Shown in pieces: positions 36,935 to 43,643 of a DNA stretch of 64,000 nucleotides. The stretch is taken from NCBI RefSeq assembly GCF_030013205.1, contig NZ_CP122648.1. One strand, 5' to 3'. Source of the stretch: Escherichia coli (GTDB lineage Bacteria; Pseudomonadota; Gammaproteobacteria; Enterobacterales; Enterobacteriaceae). The notes beneath the pieces were generated by a model. The model was not told where the DNA came from and did not search any database. It saw nothing but the letters and a program-made list of their open reading frames with translations. Numbering within the stretch: position 1 is the first letter of the stretch; each line of letters opens with the position of its first letter. The position numbers were made by a program, and so were the translations under genes.

Positions 36935-37191
36935 CAAATTCCTCTCGCCCGCACTCGCGGGTTTTCATTTAACGTGACACTGTCACTTAAATACTGTGAT
37001 TTCAGCTACGATTCCGGGAGATTCCTTCCTTAACTTCCCCTCTTGCACCAAAACTGCACTACGCTGCACAAATGTTGATCAAAAGTTAAAAAATATAACT
37101 TTAAGCCAGCATTCTGGCGCTTATCCCGGCATGGCATGAGATCTGCATAAGCGGAAAGCGCAGCAATTTTTGTCTTATACAGGAACTGTTT

Positions 37192-37773
37192 ATGTCGGAT
37201 ACCACCGAACTGGTTGATTTAGCCGTGATCTTCCCTGATCTGGAGATCGAACTGAAATACGCCTGCGCTGATAACATCACAGGTAAAGCTATTTATCAGC
37301 AAGCGCGTTGTCTGTTACACAAGGATGCGATTACCGCGCTGGCGAAAAGTATCAGTATCGCCCAGCTGTCAGGCTTACAACTGGTGATTTACGATGCGTA
37401 TCGCCCACAACAAGCACAGGCGATGTTGTGGCAAGCCTGCCCAGACCCGCAATATGTTGTTGATGTGGCGGTCGGTTCTAATCACAGCCGTGGCACGGCG
37501 ATCGACCTGACGCTTCGTGATGAGCACGGGAACATCCTGGATATGGGTGCAGAGTTCGATGAAATGCACGAACGTTCCCATGCTTATCACCCTTCCGTCC
37601 CGCCCGCCGCTCAGCGCAATCGGCTGTTGCTGAATGCGATTATGACTGGCGGTGGCTTTGTCGGTATCCCGAGCGAATGGTGGCACTTCGAATTACCCCA
37701 GGCAGCGAGTTACCCACTACTCGCTGATCAATTCACCTGTTTTATATCCCCTGGCACACAGCACGCCAGTTAA
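37192..37773 (+). CDS. ddpX: D-Ala-D-Ala dipeptidase DdpX (VanX homolog, 193 aa)
   Basis: 193-aa ORF with VanX-type metal-site residues (SNHSRG, EWWHFE). Confidence 0.9.
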   Translation: MSDTTELVDLAVIFPDLEIELKYACADNITGKAIYQQARCLLHKDAITALAKSISIAQLSGLQLVIYDAYRPQQAQAMLWQACPDPQYVVDVAVGSNHSRGTAIDLTLRDEHGNILDMGAEFDEMHERSHAYHPSVPPAAQRNRLLLNAIMTGGGFVGIPSEWWHFELPQAASYPLLADQFTCFISPGTQHAS

Positions 37774-37786
37774 TCAGGAAACTGTC

Positions 37787-39337
37787 ATGAAGAGATCGAT
37801 ATCGTTTCGTCCTACATTGCTCGCGATCGTCCTTGCCACAACAATGCCGGTTGCGCACGCCGCCGTACCGAAAGATATGCTGGTGATCGGTAAAGCTGCC
37901 GACCCACAAACCCTCGACCCGGCGGTAACAATTGATAATAACGACTGGACAGTGACCTACCCGTCTTATCAGCGACTGGTTCAGTACAAAACGGACGGTG
38001 ATAAAGGCTCAACCGACGTTGAAGGCGATCTGGCTAGTAGCTGGAAAGCGTCTGACGATCAAAAAGAGTGGACGTTCACCCTGAAGGACAATGCTAAATT
38101 TGCCGATGGCACACCTGTCACTGCCGAAGCAGTAAAACTCTCTTTTGAGCGGTTACTAAAAATCGGCCAGGGGCCAGCAGAAGCATTTCCCAAAGATTTA
38201 AAGATTGATGCTCCCGACGAACATACAGTGAGGTTTACCCTTAGCCAGCCATTCGCACCGTTCCTCTACACGCTGGCGAATGACGGTGCATCCATTATCA
38301 ATCCGGCGGTCTTAAAGGAGCATGCGGCGGATGATGCCCGTGGTTTCCTCGCGCAAAATACCGCTGGCTCCGGACCGTTTATGCTGAAAAGCTGGCAAAA
38401 AGGTCAGCAATTAGTTCTGGTGCCAAATCCGCATTACCCCGGCAATAAACCGAATTTCAAACGGGTATCGGTAAAAATTATCGGTGAAAGTGCTTCCCGT
38501 CGCCTGCAGCTCTCCCGTGGCGACATTGACATTGCCGATGCGCTGCCGGTGGATCAACTCAACGCACTGAAGCAGGAAAACAAAGTCAATGTGGCAGAGT
38601 ATCCGTCACTGCGCGTCACCTATCTGTATCTGAATAACAGCAAAGCGCCACTTAATCAGGCGGATCTGCGTCGGGCCATTTCCTGGTCTACCGATTATCA
38701 GGGTATGGTTAACGGCATTCTGAGTGGTAACGGAAAACAAATGCGCGGCCCGATTCCGGAAGGCATGTGGGGATACGATGCGACGGCAATGCAATACAAC
38801 CATGACGAAACGAAAGCCAAAGCCGAATGGGATAAAGTGACGAGCAAACCCACCAGCCTGACGTTTCTCTATTCTGATAATGATCCGAACTGGGAGCCCA
38901 TTGCTCTGGCGACACAATCCAGTCTCAACAAGCTGGGCATCAATGTGAAGCTGGAAAAACTGGCGAACGCCACCATGCGCGACAGAGTGGGTAAAGGTGA
39001 TTACGACATCGCGATTGGCAACTGGAGTCCGGATTTTGCCGACCCGTATATGTTTATGAATTACTGGTTTGAGTCAGACAAAAAAGGTCTGCCGGGTAAC
39101 CGCTCGTTCTATGAAAACAGTGAGGTCGATAAGTTACTGCGCAATGCGCTAGCGACCACCGACCAGACGCAGCGTACCCGGGACTACCAGCAGGCACAGA
39201 AAATCGTCATTGATGACGCTGCTTATGTGTACCTGTTCCAGAAAAACTACCAACTGGCGATGAACAAAGAGGTGAAAGGCTTTGTGTTCAATCCCATGCT
39301 GGAACAGGTCTTCAATATCAATACCATGAGTAAATAA
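37787..39337 (+). CDS. ddpA: D,D-dipeptide ABC transporter periplasmic binding protein DdpA (516 aa)
   Basis: Signal peptide from the internal Met (MKRSISFRPTLLAIVLATTMPVAHA); family-5 solute-binding protein length. Confidence 0.9.
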   Translation: MKRSISFRPTLLAIVLATTMPVAHAAVPKDMLVIGKAADPQTLDPAVTIDNNDWTVTYPSYQRLVQYKTDGDKGSTDVEGDLASSWKASDDQKEWTFTLKDNAKFADGTPVTAEAVKLSFERLLKIGQGPAEAFPKDLKIDAPDEHTVRFTLSQPFAPFLYTLANDGASIINPAVLKEHAADDARGFLAQNTAGSGPFMLKSWQKGQQLVLVPNPHYPGNKPNFKRVSVKIIGESASRRLQLSRGDIDIADALPVDQLNALKQENKVNVAEYPSLRVTYLYLNNSKAPLNQADLRRAISWSTDYQGMVNGILSGNGKQMRGPIPEGMWGYDATAMQYNHDETKAKAEWDKVTSKPTSLTFLYSDNDPNWEPIALATQSSLNKLGINVKLEKLANATMRDRVGKGDYDIAIGNWSPDFADPYMFMNYWFESDKKGLPGNRSFYENSEVDKLLRNALATTDQTQRTRDYQQAQKIVIDDAAYVYLFQKNYQLAMNKEVKGFVFNPMLEQVFNINTMSK

Positions 39338-39338
39338 C

Positions 39339-40361
39339 GTGACCTTCTGGAGTATTTTACGCCAACGCTGCTGGGGGCTGGTGCTCGTGGTGGCGGGCGT
39401 CTGTGTGATTACGTTTATTATCTCGCACCTGATCCCCGGCGATCCGGCGCGGTTACTGGCGGGTGACCGCGCCAGCGATGCTATCGTGGATAATATTCGC
39501 CAGCAACTGGGACTGGACCAGCCACTGTACGTACAGTTTTACCGCTACGTCAGCGACCTGTTTCAGGGTGACCTGGGAACATCCATTCGTACCGGGCGTC
39601 CGGTGCTGGAAGAGTTGCGCATATTTTTCCCGGCGACGCTGGAACTGGCTTTTTGTGCCCTGCTGCTGGCACTCCTGATTGGCATCCCGCTGGGCATACT
39701 CTCTGCAGTCTGGCGAAATCGCTGGCTGGATCATCTGGTGCGAATAATGGCCATTACCGGAATCTCCACACCTGCGTTCTGGCTTGGGCTGGGCGTCATT
39801 GTGCTGTTTTATGGTCATCTGCAAATTCTTCCCGGCGGCGGAAGGCTTGATGACTGGCTGGATCCACCAACGCACGTTACCGGCTTTTATCTGCTCGATG
39901 CGCTGCTTGAAGGTAACGGTGAAGTCTTCTTCAATGCGCTGCAACATCTCATCTTACCGGCATTAACGCTGGCGTTCGTTCACCTGGGGATTGTCGCTCG
40001 CCAGATCCGCTCAGCTATGCTGGAACAATTGAGTGAAGACTACATTCGTACCGCCCGGGCCAGCGGCTTGCCCGGCTGGTATATCGTTTTATGTTATGCG
40101 CTACCCAATGCGTTGATCCCCTCGATTACCGTATTGGGACTGGCGTTGGGCGATTTGTTGTATGGCGCAGTGCTCACCGAAACCGTTTTTGCCTGGCCCG
40201 GAATGGGTGCATGGGTAGTAACATCAATACAGGCGCTCGACTTCCCGGCAGTGATGGGCTTTGCCGTCGTGGTTTCATTTGCTTATGTGCTGGTGAACCT
40301 GGTGGTGGATTTGCTCTATTTGTGGATTGATCCGCGTATCGGACGTGGAGGTGGTGAATGA
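39339..40361 (+). CDS. ddpB: D,D-dipeptide ABC transporter permease DdpB (340 aa)
   Basis: GTG start 1 nt after the ddpA stop; polytopic membrane protein. Confidence 0.9.
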   Translation: MTFWSILRQRCWGLVLVVAGVCVITFIISHLIPGDPARLLAGDRASDAIVDNIRQQLGLDQPLYVQFYRYVSDLFQGDLGTSIRTGRPVLEELRIFFPATLELAFCALLLALLIGIPLGILSAVWRNRWLDHLVRIMAITGISTPAFWLGLGVIVLFYGHLQILPGGGRLDDWLDPPTHVTGFYLLDALLEGNGEVFFNALQHLILPALTLAFVHLGIVARQIRSAMLEQLSEDYIRTARASGLPGWYIVLCYALPNALIPSITVLGLALGDLLYGAVLTETVFAWPGMGAWVVTSIQALDFPAVMGFAVVVSFAYVLVNLVVDLLYLWIDPRIGRGGGE

Positions 40362-41254
40362 TGCTAAGCGAGGAAACGTCCGCCGTACGCCCACCAAAAC
40401 AAACGCGATTTAACGGTGCAAAACTGGTATGGATGCTGAAAGGCAGCCCGCTTACCGTGACCGGCGCAGTCATCATTGTATTAATGCTACTGATGATGAT
40501 TTTTTCACCGTGGCTGGCGACGCATGATCCCAACGCCATTGATTTAACCGCCCGCCTTTTGCCGCCTTCTGCGGCGCACTGGTTTGGCACCGATGAAGTG
40601 GGACGCGATCTGTTTAGCCGCGTACTGGTCGGCAGTCAGCAATCAATTCTCGCCGGATTAGTGGTAGTCGCCATTGCAGGTATGATGGGGTCGCTACTCG
40701 GGTGTCTATCCGGTGTGCTTGGCGGACGCGCAGACGCGATTATCATGCGCATCATGGACATTATGCTGTCGATTCCTTCGCTGGTGCTGACAATGGCACT
40801 GGCAGCCGCTCTCGGGCCGAGTTTGTTTAACGCCATGCTGGCGATTGCTATTGTGCGAATTCCCTTTTATGTGCGCCTGGCGCGGGGGCAAACATTAGTT
40901 GTTCGCCAGTATACCTATGTTCAGGCGGCGAAAACCTTTGGTGCGTCACGCTGGCATCTGATCAACTGGCATATTTTACGTAACTCCCTGCCGCCGCTGA
41001 TTGTGCAGGCATCGCTGGATATCGGTAGCGCGATTTTAATGGCCGCCACGTTGGGATTTATTGGCCTGGGTGCTCAACAACCGAGTGCTGAATGGGGGGC
41101 GATGGTGGCGAATGGTCGCAACTATGTACTCGATCAGTGGTGGTATTGCGCATTTCCGGGGGCAGCGATTTTGCTTACCGCCGTCGGGTTTAATCTCTTT
41201 GGTGATGGTATTCGCGATCTGCTTGACCCGAAAGCAGGAGGAAAGCAGTCATGA
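40358..41254 (+). CDS. ddpC: D,D-dipeptide ABC transporter permease DdpC (298 aa)
   Basis: ATGA start/stop overlap with ddpB; membrane permease. Confidence 0.9.
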   Translation: MMLSEETSAVRPPKQTRFNGAKLVWMLKGSPLTVTGAVIIVLMLLMMIFSPWLATHDPNAIDLTARLLPPSAAHWFGTDEVGRDLFSRVLVGSQQSILAGLVVVAIAGMMGSLLGCLSGVLGGRADAIIMRIMDIMLSIPSLVLTMALAAALGPSLFNAMLAIAIVRIPFYVRLARGQTLVVRQYTYVQAAKTFGASRWHLINWHILRNSLPPLIVQASLDIGSAILMAATLGFIGLGAQQPSAEWGAMVANGRNYVLDQWWYCAFPGAAILLTAVGFNLFGDGIRDLLDPKAGGKQS

Positions 41255-42237
41255 CCCAACCCGTTCTGGACATTCAACAACTGCATTTGAGTTTCCCCGG
41301 TTTTAACGGTGATGTTCACGCGCTCAACAATGTGTCATTGAAAATCAACCGCGGTGAAATTGTCGGTCTGGTGGGAGAATCCGGCTCGGGTAAATCAGTC
41401 ACTGCAATGTTGATTATGCGTCTGCTACCGACGGGCAGTTATTGCGTACATCGGGGACATATTTCACTGCTGGGAGAAGATGCTCTTAACGCTCGGGAAA
41501 AACAGCTTCGTCAGTGGCGCGGCGCACGAGTGGCGATGATCTTTCAGGAACCGATGACCGCCCTTAATCCGACACGTCGAATAGGTCTTCAGATGATGGA
41601 CGTGATCCGCCATCATCAACCAATAAGTCGTCGGGAAGCCAGAGCTAAAGCGATTGCCCTGCTGGAAGAGATGCAAATCCCGGATGCCGTGGAAGTTATG
41701 TCGCGCTATCCGTTTGAGCTTTCAGGTGGTATGCGCCAGCGGGTAATGATTGCGCTGGCATTCTCCTGCGAGCCGCAGTTGATTATTGCCGACGAACCGA
41801 CTACGGCGCTGGACGTCACGGTACAGTTGCAGGTACTGCGTCTGCTTAAACATAAAGCCCGCGCCAGTGGAACTGCGGTACTGTTCATCAGCCATGATAT
41901 GGCCGTGGTGTCGCAACTGTGCGATAGCGTTTACGTGATGTATGCCGGAAGCGTGATTGAAAGCGGCGTGACGGCAGACGTTATCCATCATCCCCGGCAT
42001 CCGTATACCATTGGTTTGCTGCAATGCGCACCGGAACATGGAATACCGCGCCAGCCATTACCCGCCATTCCAGGGACGGTACCAAACCTCACCCATTTGC
42101 CTGACGGCTGCGCTTTTCGCGATCGTTGCTATGCGGCAGGTGCACAGTGTGAAAACGTCCCGGCGCTGACAGCGTGTGGTGACAACAACCACCGCTGCGC
42201 CTGTTGGTATCCTCAGCAGGAGGTCATTAGTGTCTGA
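41251..42237 (+). CDS. ddpD: D,D-dipeptide ABC transporter ATPase DdpD (328 aa)
   Basis: Walker A GESGSGKS, ABC signature LSGGMRQR; 4-nt overlap with ddpC. Confidence 0.9.
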   Translation: MTQPVLDIQQLHLSFPGFNGDVHALNNVSLKINRGEIVGLVGESGSGKSVTAMLIMRLLPTGSYCVHRGHISLLGEDALNAREKQLRQWRGARVAMIFQEPMTALNPTRRIGLQMMDVIRHHQPISRREARAKAIALLEEMQIPDAVEVMSRYPFELSGGMRQRVMIALAFSCEPQLIIADEPTTALDVTVQLQVLRLLKHKARASGTAVLFISHDMAVVSQLCDSVYVMYAGSVIESGVTADVIHHPRHPYTIGLLQCAPEHGIPRQPLPAIPGTVPNLTHLPDGCAFRDRCYAAGAQCENVPALTACGDNNHRCACWYPQQEVISV

Positions 42238-43156
42238 CACGTTATTAACGTTACGCGACGTCCATATCAATTTCCCTGCCCGAAAAAACTGGCTTGGTAA
42301 AACTACGGAACATGTTCATGCCATCAATGGTATTGATTTACAGATCCGTCGTGGTGAAACCTTAGGGATCGTCGGTGAGTCAGGCTGCGGCAAAAGCACC
42401 CTCGCACAGCTTTTAATGGGTATGCTGCAACCGAGCCACGGGCAGTACATCTGTTCAGGATCACAACGCATTATGCAGATGGTGTTTCAGGACCCGCTCT
42501 CTTCGCTTAATCCGCGCTTACCGGTGTGGCGCATCATCACGGAACCGCTCTGGATTGCTAAGCGTAGTAGTGAACAACAGCGGCGAGCGTTGGCAGAGGA
42601 GCTGGCTGTGCAGGTGGGTATTCGTCCGGAGTATCTCGACCGCTTGCCTCATGCGTTCTCAGGCGGGCAGCGGCAACGTATCGCCATTGCCAGAGCACTC
42701 TCTTCGCAGCCTGACGTGATTGTGCTTGATGAACCAACCTCGGCGCTGGATATCTCCGTGCAGGCGCAGATCCTCAATTTACTGGTAACGCTACAGGAAA
42801 ATCGCGAGCTGACTTATGTGCTGATTTCACACAATGTCTCCGTGATACGTCATATGAGCGATCGGGTGGCGGTGATGTATCTCGGACAGATTGTGGAACT
42901 AGGAGACGCGCAACAGGTGCTGACAGCTCCGGCACATCCATACACCCGATTATTGCTGGATTCCCTCCCCGCCATTGATAAACCGCTGGAGGAAGAATGG
43001 GCATTACGTAAAACGGATCTACCAGGAAACCGCACGTTGCCACAAGGCTGTTTTTTCCGCGAACGCTGCCCTTTGGCAACCCACGGATGTGAAGTCCGGC
43101 AATCATTAACAATAAGGGAGGACGGACGTGAGATCCGGTGCTGGCGGGCGCTGTAG
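42230..43156 (+). CDS. ddpF: D,D-dipeptide ABC transporter ATPase DdpF (308 aa, GTG start)
   Basis: Walker A GESGCGKST, signature FSGGQRQR; GTG at 42230 gives the 308-aa product and an 8-nt overlap with ddpD. Confidence 0.85.
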   Translation: MSDTLLTLRDVHINFPARKNWLGKTTEHVHAINGIDLQIRRGETLGIVGESGCGKSTLAQLLMGMLQPSHGQYICSGSQRIMQMVFQDPLSSLNPRLPVWRIITEPLWIAKRSSEQQRRALAEELAVQVGIRPEYLDRLPHAFSGGQRQRIAIARALSSQPDVIVLDEPTSALDISVQAQILNLLVTLQENRELTYVLISHNVSVIRHMSDRVAVMYLGQIVELGDAQQVLTAPAHPYTRLLLDSLPAIDKPLEEEWALRKTDLPGNRTLPQGCFFRERCPLATHGCEVRQSLTIREDGREIRCWRAL

Positions 43157-43211
43157 AGACGCTAACAACGCATCAGGCAATCACGCGCCTGACGCGTCAT
43201 CCGGCAACGCT

Positions 43212-43643
43212 TTACGATTTCAACTGGTAATCAAGCGTAATTTCAGCTTTCAGTACCTGAGAAACCGGGCATCCTGCTTTTGCTTTCTGGATAATGCCGT
43301 CAAAAGTAGAGGCATCAATACCCGGCACCGCAACTTCGCTTTTCAGTGCGATTTTAGTAATCGCAAAACCGGCATCCACTTTATCCAGCGACACATCTGC
43401 GGTGGTATCAATCGATGTTGGCGTGAATCCCGCTTCCCCCAGCATTAATGAAAGCGCCATTGAGAAACATGCGGCATGCGCTGCGCCAATCAGTTCTTCA
43501 GGGTTGGTTCCTTTTTCGCCTTCAAAACGCGTGTTAAATCCATACGGCTGTTGGTTCAGCACGCCGCTCTCGGTGGATACTGTTCCCTTCCCGCGTTTGA
43601 TATCGCCTTCCCAGTGTGCCTGACCTTTCTTATGGATTGTCAT
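43212..43643 (-). CDS. osmC: Osmotically inducible peroxiredoxin OsmC (143 aa)
   Basis: 143-aa ORF convergent with ddpF; OsmC/Ohr-family sequence with conserved Cys pair. Confidence 0.9.
   Translation of the reverse strand: MTIHKKGQAHWEGDIKRGKGTVSTESGVLNQQPYGFNTRFEGEKGTNPEELIGAAHAACFSMALSLMLGEAGFTPTSIDTTADVSLDKVDAGFAITKIALKSEVAVPGIDASTFDGIIQKAKAGCPVSQVLKAEITLDYQLKS

What the first reader, a model, noticed from the sequence alone, without database searches (positions are those of the whole stretch)
39339..43156. Translationally coupled ddp operon with GTG starts and overlapping junctions
ddpB starts with GTG 1 nt after ddpA, ddpB/ddpC and ddpC/ddpD share ATGA overlaps, and ddpF starts with GTG 8 nt inside ddpD. 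Naive ORF calling over-extends ddpA and ddpF.
Basis: seen in the sequence. Interest (0 to 1): 0.15.

Follow-up and report, generated by a model that had tools for sequence, protein, structure and literature searches.

The report
Known E. coli ddp operon junctions
This is the already-annotated E. coli ddpXABCDF D-Ala-D-Ala dipeptidase and ABC-transporter operon, whose tightly abutting or overlapping gene junctions and GTG starts are read correctly but are ordinary for bacterial transporter operons.

Summary
These are ddpA TAA, then 1 nt, then ddpB GTG (39339), ATGA overlaps at 40358 and 41251, and ddpF GTG (42230) 8 nt inside ddpD. All match the RefSeq annotation, K-12 MG1655 included.

The short starts are right. 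DdpF's formyl-Met peptide MSDTLLTLR was found at this GTG by published N-terminomics. At least 3,267 E. coli genomes carry an in-frame TAA directly before that GTG. In 77 of 81 orthologous loci the ddpF start is ATG, and in the 56 that share the 8-nt overlap it lies at the aligned codon. DdpA's start is followed by a signal peptide.

The tight B/C, C/D and D/F junctions (-8, -4 or -1) are conserved across about 80 species, and these are the standard spacings linked to termination-reinitiation coupling. Coupling itself is inferred, not shown for ddp.

One new detail emerged. All 78 non-Escherichia orthologues have a 22-378 nt ddpA-ddpB spacer with a G-rich SD and ATG, and most spacers examined also have a GC hairpin. 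Only Escherichia has TAAcGTG, so a lineage-specific deletion removed ddpB's ribosome-binding site.

Verdict: observation confirmed, already known, low interest.

The parts
36944..36962 (+). Terminator-like hairpin plus T-run after dosP, separating the dosCP transcript from ddp
   Evidence: GCCCGCACTCGCGGGT TTTCATTT. This is a consensus scan only.
37132..37147 (+). Sigma-54 (-24/-12)-like element TGGCAT-N5-CTGCA, 45 nt upstream of ddpX ATG
   Evidence: It is the only match to TGGCAYN5YTGCW in the window, although 32% of shuffles give at least one match. The ddpX promoter is reported as RpoN/NtrC-dependent in PMC8743547.
37192..37773 (+). ddpX, D-Ala-D-Ala dipeptidase (193 aa)
   Evidence: Pfam Peptidase_M15, E=5.9e-79. 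Annotation.
37787..39337 (+). ddpA, periplasmic substrate-binding protein (516 aa). ATG lies 13 nt after the ddpX TAA and a weak SD (AGGA) precedes it.
   Evidence: Pfam SBP_bac_5, E=1.6e-101. The start is followed by MKRSISFRPTLLAIVLATTMPVAHA|AV, which has signal-peptide features. An ATG with a GGAG-type SD about 13-15 nt after the ddpX stop is seen in most orthologous loci. The in-vitro TIS signal is 59-151 CPM.
39335..39341 (+). ddpA/ddpB junction TAA-c-GTG, with no SD. Derived state found only in Escherichia.
   Evidence: (SD dG -2.2).
39339..40361 (+). ddpB, permease (340 aa), GTG start
   Evidence: Pfam BPD_transp_1_N aligns from residue 7 to profile position 5, and BPD_transp_1 also matches. 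The first codons after the start (T-F-W-S-I-L-R-Q-R in E. coli) align closely with orthologues, where the start is ATG in 78 of 82 loci. The in-vitro TIS signal at this GTG is 26-42 CPM in 5 of 5 replicates.
40347..40363 (+). ddpB/ddpC junction: SD GGAGGT (40347-40352) inside ddpB, then ATGATG overlapping TGA (ATGA)
   Evidence: SD dG -13.8. One search finds -4 in 44 of 82 loci, mostly with the tandem second ATG.
40358..41254 (+). ddpC, permease (298 aa, or 297 aa if the second ATG at 40361 is used)
   Evidence: Pfam OppC_N and BPD_transp_1. Annotation.
41236..41254 (+). ddpC/ddpD junction: SD AGGAGGA (41236-41242) and ATGA overlap (41251-41254)
   Evidence: SD dG -10.3. One search finds -4 in 24 loci, -1 in 36 and +1/+2 in 17.
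41251..42237 (+). ddpD, ATPase (328 aa)
   Evidence: Pfam ABC_tran and oligo_HPY. The in-vitro TIS signal is 77-120 CPM.
42218..42237 (+). ddpD/ddpF junction: SD AGGAGGT (42218-42224), GTG 42230, ddpD TGA 42235-42237 (8-nt overlap NTGNNTGA)
   Evidence: SD dG -11.5. One search finds -8 in 56 of 81 loci, and the ddpF start is ATG in 77 of 81.
42230..43156 (+). ddpF, ATPase (308 aa), GTG start
   Evidence: N-terminal peptide MSDTLLTLR was mapped to this GTG in K-12 (PMC13245402, Table S2 row 13). Pfam ABC_tran and oligo_HPY. An in-frame TAA lies directly 5' in at least 3,267 genomes.

Best explanation
The region is the known E. coli ddpXABCDF operon. It encodes a VanX-like D-Ala-D-Ala dipeptidase and a Dpp/Opp-type ABC importer (binding protein DdpA, permeases DdpB and DdpC, ATPases DdpD and DdpF). 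It is transcribed from an RpoN/NtrC-dependent promoter upstream of ddpX. The annotated short starts are the real ones.

The four transporter subunits made after DdpA are laid out so that a ribosome finishing one gene is already on the next start codon. At B/C, C/D and D/F (-4, -4, -8) a strong SD sits inside the upstream gene's last codons. The most likely mechanism is termination-reinitiation, helped by SD pairing, giving near-equimolar BCDF. This arrangement is ancestral.

The A/B junction is different. Other genera have a spacer with an SD and ATG, and most of those examined also have a GC hairpin, which allows independent, tunable initiation. In Escherichia one deletion removed the spacer. 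It left TAAcGTG, with the new G plausibly coming from the spacer and the TG from the old ATG. ddpB is therefore now initiated without an SD, by reinitiation after ddpA and/or by weak SD-independent de novo initiation in an A/U-rich context.

Shown: gene identity, start positions, junction conservation, the ddpF N-terminus and in-vitro start use. Inferred: coupling, its contribution to stoichiometry and the deletion scenario.
For: Identity and starts:
- Annotation; Pfam architecture.

ddpF start:
- The formyl-Met peptide MSDTLLTLR lies at the annotated GTG.
- The SD is strong (dG -11.5) against -2.6 for the upstream GTGs.
- In 77 of 81 orthologues the ddpF start is ATG, and in the 56 loci with the 8-nt overlap it is at the aligned codon.
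- TAA directly precedes the GTG in 1,270 + 1,997 genomes; 652 genomes have the open allele.

ddpB start:
- No in-frame start lies upstream.
- The N-terminal Pfam domain and the first codons after the start are conserved in orthologues.
- An in-vitro TIS peak is present.

ddpA start:
- Signal-peptide features follow it, and a conserved ATG plus SD lies 13-15 nt after ddpX.

Coupling geometry:
- It is conserved across about 80 loci.
- -4, -1 and -8 are the known coupling spacings, and 13 of 14 tested overlapping pairs were strictly coupled.
- The ddpF TIS is absent on an isolated fragment in vitro yet used in vivo.

Escherichia-specific spacer loss:
-.

Genes are functional:
- dN/dS is 0.00-0.16 for all six genes.
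Against: - No experiment has tested coupling in ddp.
- INRI-seq detects de novo initiation at the ddpB, ddpC and ddpD starts on isolated fragments, so coupling is not obligatory for them.
- No conserved SD-occluding hairpin was found at D/F. Local folding around all the starts is not unusual, with z from -1.7 to +1.4.
- The ddpF N-terminus rests on one peptide in one study.
- The tandem ATGs of ddpC (40358 and 40361) cannot be resolved.
- The single-deletion model assumes an Enterobacter-like ancestral spacer that cannot be verified.
Confidence: 0.8

Rival explanations
1. Each ddp gene is initiated independently from its own ribosome-binding site. The overlaps are only genome compaction and have no functional coupling.
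For: Strong SDs precede ddpC, ddpD and ddpF (dG -13.8, -10.3 and -11.5). In-vitro initiation occurs at the ddpB, ddpC and ddpD starts on isolated fragments. No conserved occluding structure was found.
Against: The exact -8, -4 and -1 geometry is retained over about 80 species despite sequence turnover. ddpF gives no in-vitro TIS signal when uncoupled, yet its N-terminus is made in vivo. Native E. coli overlapping pairs tested elsewhere were strictly coupled. ddpB has no SD at all in Escherichia.
Confidence: 0.25
2. The longer upstream starts are the real ones, namely ddpA from GTG 37652 and ddpF from GTG 42176.
For: Both ORFs are open in this window.
Against: ddpF:
- TAA immediately precedes the GTG in at least 3,267 E. 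coli genomes, K-12 included.
- An N-terminal peptide maps to the short start.
- The upstream GTGs have no SD.
- The ddpF start is ATG in 77 of 81 orthologues, at the aligned codon in the 56 with the 8-nt overlap.

ddpA:
- The extension lies inside ddpX in another frame and would bury the signal peptide 45 residues in.
- Most orthologous loci have no upstream in-frame start at all.
- The in-vitro TIS lies at the annotated ATG.
Confidence: 0.02
3. ddpB really starts at one of the downstream GTGs (39381, 39387 or 39390), which follow a G-rich SD-like run.
For: Their SD scores (-8.4 to -9.1) are better than the annotated GTG's (-2.2).
Against: Such a start would remove 14-17 residues. These include the conserved MTFWSILRQR motif and the beginning of the BPD_transp_1_N domain and its first transmembrane segment. 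INRI-seq places a TIS peak at the annotated GTG and lists no alternative TIS at +42 to +51. Orthologues start at the aligned ATG.
Confidence: 0.05
4. The transporter half of the operon is cryptic or decaying in E. coli. Loss of the ddpB ribosome-binding site would then be a step towards pseudogenisation rather than a coupling device.
For: - The SD and spacer are lost only in Escherichia.
- The whole ddp region is absent from about 1,140 of 5,426 genomes.
- A ddpB frameshift allele occurs in 86 genomes, many of them O157:H7.
- Under nitrogen limitation ddpX mRNA rises 104.5-fold but ddpF only 2.2-fold.
Against: All six genes are under strong purifying selection within Escherichia, with dN/dS 0.00-0.16 and ddpB 0.03-0.08. 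The TAAcGTG junction is invariant in at least 4,223 genomes. The ddpF protein N-terminus is detected. The ddpB GTG is initiation-competent in vitro.
Confidence: 0.12

Closest known systems
E. coli K-12 ddpXABCDF operon (b1488-b1483; formerly yddS-yddO with vanX homologue)
   Same: Gene order, lengths, start codons and all four junction geometries are identical. DNA identity is about 97%. dosCP is the upstream neighbour and osmC the downstream neighbour.
   Different: There are only allelic differences. The relevant one is that this window has TTA where K-12 has TAA immediately 5' of the ddpF GTG. As a result the 326-aa 'long' ORF exists here but not in K-12.
Overlapping or abutting unidirectional gene pairs coupled by termination-reinitiation (Huber et al. 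2019, PMC6728339; Huber et al. 2023, PMC10666635; review PMC12548453)
   Same: The spacings -4 (ATGA), -8 (NTGNNTGA) and +1 fall within the -8 to +10 window. In that window coupling is efficient and heteromeric-complex subunits are enriched 4.5-fold in E. coli.
   Different: The ddp pairs were not among the pairs tested. Whether ddp downstream genes depend on upstream translation is unknown.
Dpp/Opp-type (PepT family) ABC importer operons, such as dppABCDF and oppABCDF
   Same: The domain set is the same: an SBP_bac_5 binding protein, two BPD_transp_1 permeases (BPD_transp_1_N and OppC_N) and two ABC_tran + oligo_HPY ATPases.
   Different: The operon is preceded by an M15 dipeptidase gene. In Escherichia there is no intergenic spacer between the binding-protein and permease genes, whereas ddp orthologues in other genera keep a spacer with an SD, usually with a hairpin.

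Membership tests
ddpXABCDF operon (E. coli) | Six co-directional genes in the order X-A-B-C-D-F between dosP and osmC | tested here: met
   The region is 100% identical to NZ_CP062203 over 37000-43300.
ddpXABCDF operon (E. coli) | M15 D-Ala-D-Ala dipeptidase plus Dpp/Opp-type ABC transporter domain set | tested here: met
   Pfam hits: Peptidase_M15, SBP_bac_5, BPD_transp_1 (twice), OppC_N, BPD_transp_1_N, ABC_tran + oligo_HPY (twice).
ddpXABCDF operon (E. coli) | RpoN/NtrC-dependent promoter upstream of ddpX | tested here: inconclusive
   A -24/-12-like motif lies at 37132-37147, but chance matches are common. The literature supports the promoter.
ddpXABCDF operon (E. coli) | Transport of D-Ala-D-Ala | not testable with these tools
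   The function is still labelled 'putative' in the K-12 annotation.
Translationally coupled gene pairs (termination-reinitiation) | Co-directional pair with stop-start distance between -8 and about +10 nt | tested here: met
   The distances are +1, -4, -4 and -8.
Translationally coupled gene pairs (termination-reinitiation) | Junction geometry conserved in orthologues | tested here: met
   This holds for B/C, C/D and D/F. It does not hold for A/B, which is tight only in Escherichia.
Translationally coupled gene pairs (termination-reinitiation) | Downstream translation depends on upstream translation reaching the junction | not testable with these tools
   The only indirect hint is that the ddpF TIS is undetected on an isolated fragment in vitro but used in vivo.
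Translationally coupled gene pairs (termination-reinitiation) | Products are subunits of one heteromeric complex | tested here: met
   Met by homology to the ABC importer subunits BCDF. The complex itself was not shown experimentally here.

The most novel reading that the evidence does not exclude
In the Escherichia lineage a single small deletion excised the ddpA-ddpB spacer together with ddpB's Shine-Dalgarno sequence and the A of its ATG. In an Enterobacter-like ancestor this would be about 22 nt: TAAcg[...gtgtA]TGacg becoming TAAcGTGacc. The deletion fortuitously recreated an in-frame GTG. ddpB, and through polarity the whole BCDF module, was thereby switched from independent initiation to SD-less initiation or reinitiation dependent on ddpA. 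This would set a low permease-to-binding-protein ratio and would explain the steep ddpX (104-fold) to ddpF (2.2-fold) induction gradient.
Probability: 0.3. Interest if true: 0.25.

Novelty: already known. Interest (0 to 1): 0.1.

Why it matters
The finding matters little beyond annotation hygiene. It confirms that the reference starts of ddpA, ddpB and ddpF are right, and that a 'first start after stop' ORF caller would mis-call two of them in this allele.

The one fresh point is a compact natural example of how a gene can lose its ribosome-binding site yet stay under purifying selection. Escherichia deleted the ddpA-ddpB spacer with its SD, leaving an SD-less GTG 1 nt after the stop. That junction could serve as a convenient native test case for reinitiation versus SD-independent initiation, by swapping the Escherichia junction with the Citrobacter or Enterobacter one.

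Tried and rejected
- I looked for an SD-occluding hairpin at the ddpD/ddpF junction (CCTGTTGG...CAGCAGG in E. coli) that could explain the in-vitro silence of ddpF. Single-sequence folds of 55 distinct orthologous junctions show no common structure, so I do not claim it.
- Local folding energies around all five starts are unremarkable against shuffles, with z from -1.7 to +1.4.
- The Ribo-RET preprint has no supplementary tables held. The in-vivo Ribo-RET values reproduced in the INRI-seq table are zero for all ddp genes, which means not expressed and is uninformative.
- TRAINSPOTTER lists only ddpF among the ddp genes. One of its tables was cut when stored, so absence of the others means nothing.
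- My automatic 'closest start' picker mis-assigned some distant loci, such as apparent gaps of 24-83 nt at B/C or C/D. Inspection shows a start within a few nt of the stop in these loci except the L075 pseudogene.
- I assumed the window equals NZ_CP062203 throughout. It does not: identity is 99.886% with 6 gaps over 64 kb, and it is identical only across the ddp region. The fdnH 'internal stop' annotated in that record is not present in the window.
Full report
**Observation.** The window between 37192 and 43156 holds six co-directional ORFs.
- Reading the sequence directly, ddpA ends with TAA at 39335-39337. One base (39338) follows, and ddpB begins with GTG at 39339.
- The ddpB TGA (40359-40361) overlaps the ddpC ATG (40358) as ATGA, with a second ATG at 40361.
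- The ddpC TGA (41252-41254) overlaps the ddpD ATG (41251) as ATGA.
- The ddpF GTG (42230) lies 8 nt inside ddpD, whose TGA is at 42235-42237.
- The mechanical ORF list starts ddpA at GTG 37652 (561 aa) and ddpF at GTG 42176 (326 aa).

**Identity.**
- The stretch 37000-43300 is 100% identical to several swine E. coli genomes and 95-99% identical to most others.
- Pfam gives the expected domain set: an M15 D-Ala-D-Ala dipeptidase, an SBP_bac_5 binding protein, two BPD_transp_1 permeases, and two ABC_tran + oligo_HPY ATPases.
- The operon is reported as RpoN/NtrC-dependent (PMC8743547). A -24/-12-like motif, TGGCAT-N5-CTGCA, sits at 37132-37147.
- A terminator-like hairpin follows dosP at 36944-36962.

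**Are the short starts right? ddpF.**
- A strong SD (AGGAGGT, dG -11.5) lies 5 nt before GTG 42230. The upstream GTGs score only -2.6.
- The ddpF start is ATG in 77 of 81 orthologous loci. The 8-nt overlap NTGnnTGA is kept in 56 of them, where the start sits at the aligned codon. Close Escherichia relatives (L003, L004) also have ATG there, so the E. coli GTG is a derived ATG-to-GTG change at a conserved start.
- In K-12 and five of the seven other E. coli genomes inspected, the codon immediately 5' of the GTG in the ddpF frame is TAA.
- Exact 35-mer counts give 1,270 + 1,997 genomes with TAA-GTG, against 652 with this window's TTA-GTG. The 'long' ORF is therefore impossible in most of the species.
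- Published N-terminomics (TRAINSPOTTER, PMC13245402, Table S2 row 13) identified the initiator-Met peptide MSDTLLTLR at this GTG in K-12.

**Are the short starts right? ddpB.**
- No in-frame start exists upstream.
- The BPD_transp_1_N domain aligns from residue 7 to profile position 5.
- The first codons after the start (T-F-W-S-I-L-R-Q-R in E. coli) align closely with the orthologues, which begin with ATG in 78 of 82 loci.
- Cell-free initiation profiling (INRI-seq, PMC9825163) shows a TIS peak at this GTG in 5 of 5 replicates.
- The downstream GTGs have better SD scores, but using them would delete this conserved N-terminus.

**Are the short starts right? ddpA.**
- ATG 37787 is followed by a typical signal peptide (MKRSISFRPTLLAIVLATTMPVAHA|AV).
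- A conserved ATG plus GGAG-type SD lies about 13-15 nt after ddpX in most orthologous loci, most of which have no upstream in-frame start.
- An in-vitro TIS peak is also present at the annotated ATG.

**The ddpC start is unresolved.** The two adjacent ATGs of ddpC (40358 and 40361) cannot be told apart with the data available.

**Coupling.**
- The B/C, C/D and D/F junctions stay at -8, -4, -1 or within a few nt across Citrobacter, Enterobacter, Pantoea, Serratia, Rahnella and even Neisseriales-type relatives. An SD is embedded in the upstream gene's last codons.
- These are the three spacing classes known to be enriched in prokaryotes (PMC12548453).
- They lie within the -8 to +10 window in which E. 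coli pairs show efficient termination-reinitiation and 4.5-fold enrichment for heteromeric-complex subunits (PMC10666635; PMC6728339).
- Coupling is therefore the most likely mechanism, but it is inferred.
- INRI-seq shows that the ddpB, ddpC and ddpD starts are usable de novo on isolated fragments.
- ddpF gives zero signal in all five replicates although its N-terminus is made in vivo. That is compatible with ddpF depending on upstream translation, but it does not prove it.
- I found no conserved SD-occluding hairpin and no unusual local folding.

The A/B junction is not like the others.
- All 78 non-Escherichia orthologues have a 22-378 nt ddpA-ddpB spacer with a G-rich SD and an ATG.
- In 8 of the 11 spacers folded, a GC-rich hairpin (-19 to -27.5 kcal/mol) is also present. 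The short Enterobacter and Lelliottia spacers and Mixta lack a strong one.
- Only the four Escherichia loci have TAAcGTG. That core is exact in at least 4,223 E. coli genomes.
- DdpA's C-terminus (...TMSK*) is unchanged in most of the relatives aligned, and DdpB's N-terminus is closely conserved, so the spacer was cleanly excised.
- With an Enterobacter-like ancestor, one 22-nt deletion would yield exactly this GTG: TAAcg[gcccacgccggggggaagtgtA]TGacg.
- ddpB remains under strong purifying selection, with dN/dS 0.03-0.08. It is therefore still expressed, either by reinitiation after ddpA or by SD-independent initiation in the A/U-rich context.
- INRI-seq also sees initiation at the ATG of ddpA codon Met514, 13 nt upstream. 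That ATG opens the mini-ORF MSK*, which ends 1 nt before the GTG.
- The reported 104.5-fold (ddpX) versus 2.2-fold (ddpF) induction under nitrogen limitation is compatible with weak expression past ddpA. It has other possible explanations.

**Comparison and verdict.** This is the known ddp operon with its known annotation. The overlaps and GTG starts are ordinary for ABC-transporter operons, and fdnH/fdnI in the same window overlap by 8 nt too. Novelty is 'already known' and interest is low. The only fresh element is the Escherichia-specific loss of the ddpB ribosome-binding site, a minor evolutionary note.

Noticed in passing
window 37000-43160 (whole ddp region): About 1,140 of 5,426 complete E. 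coli genomes lack the entire ddp region. They match the query only over the last ~130 bases, on the osmC side (examples include O18 and cerebrospinal-fluid isolates). ddp is therefore accessory within the species.
   Followed up: partly
window ~39375-39381 (G5 run in ddpB codons 13-14); L084:2340-3361: O157:H7 strain TT12A has G4 instead of G5 here, which frameshifts ddpB (annotated as a pseudogene). The exact 91-nt frameshift allele occurs in 86 genomes, many of them independent O157:H7 assemblies, so it looks like a real lineage-specific inactivation.
   Followed up: partly
window 42227-42229: This window's allele has TTA where most E. coli have TAA (in the ddpF frame) directly before the ddpF GTG. 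Counts are 652 genomes with TTA against at least 3,267 with TAA. Only the TTA allele leaves the 326-aa long ORF open.
   Followed up: yes
window 39326-39337: In-vitro initiation profiling in K-12 reports an additional TIS at the ATG of ddpA codon Met514, 13 nt upstream of the ddpB GTG. It defines a 3-codon mini-ORF (MSK*) that ends 1 nt before the ddpB start (PMC9825163, Table S3).
   Followed up: no
window 42248-42250 (ddpF codon 7, ACG): The N-terminomics study lists a second, minor DdpF proteoform starting at +6 on an ACG codon (peptide MLRDVHINFPAR). I did not evaluate it further.
   Followed up: no
window ~21270-21980 and ~20130-22600: In the nearest annotated genome an IS1 element splits the yddA-type ABC transporter gene into two pseudogene fragments. 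Nearby ydeM, a fimbrial usher and a carboxymuconolactone decarboxylase gene are annotated as frameshifted. Coordinates are approximate because the window differs from that record by 6 small gaps.
   Followed up: no
window ~59490-63930: In the nearest annotated genome narZ is truncated at its 3' end, followed by a small hypothetical gene and an IS91-family transposase. Coordinates are approximate.
   Followed up: no
window 34511 vs 34535 (dosP) and 44563 vs 44599 (maeA): The mechanical ORF list also over-extends dosP by 8 codons and maeA by 12 codons relative to the annotation. Over-extension is thus a general property of 'first start after stop' calling and is not special to ddp.
   Followed up: partly
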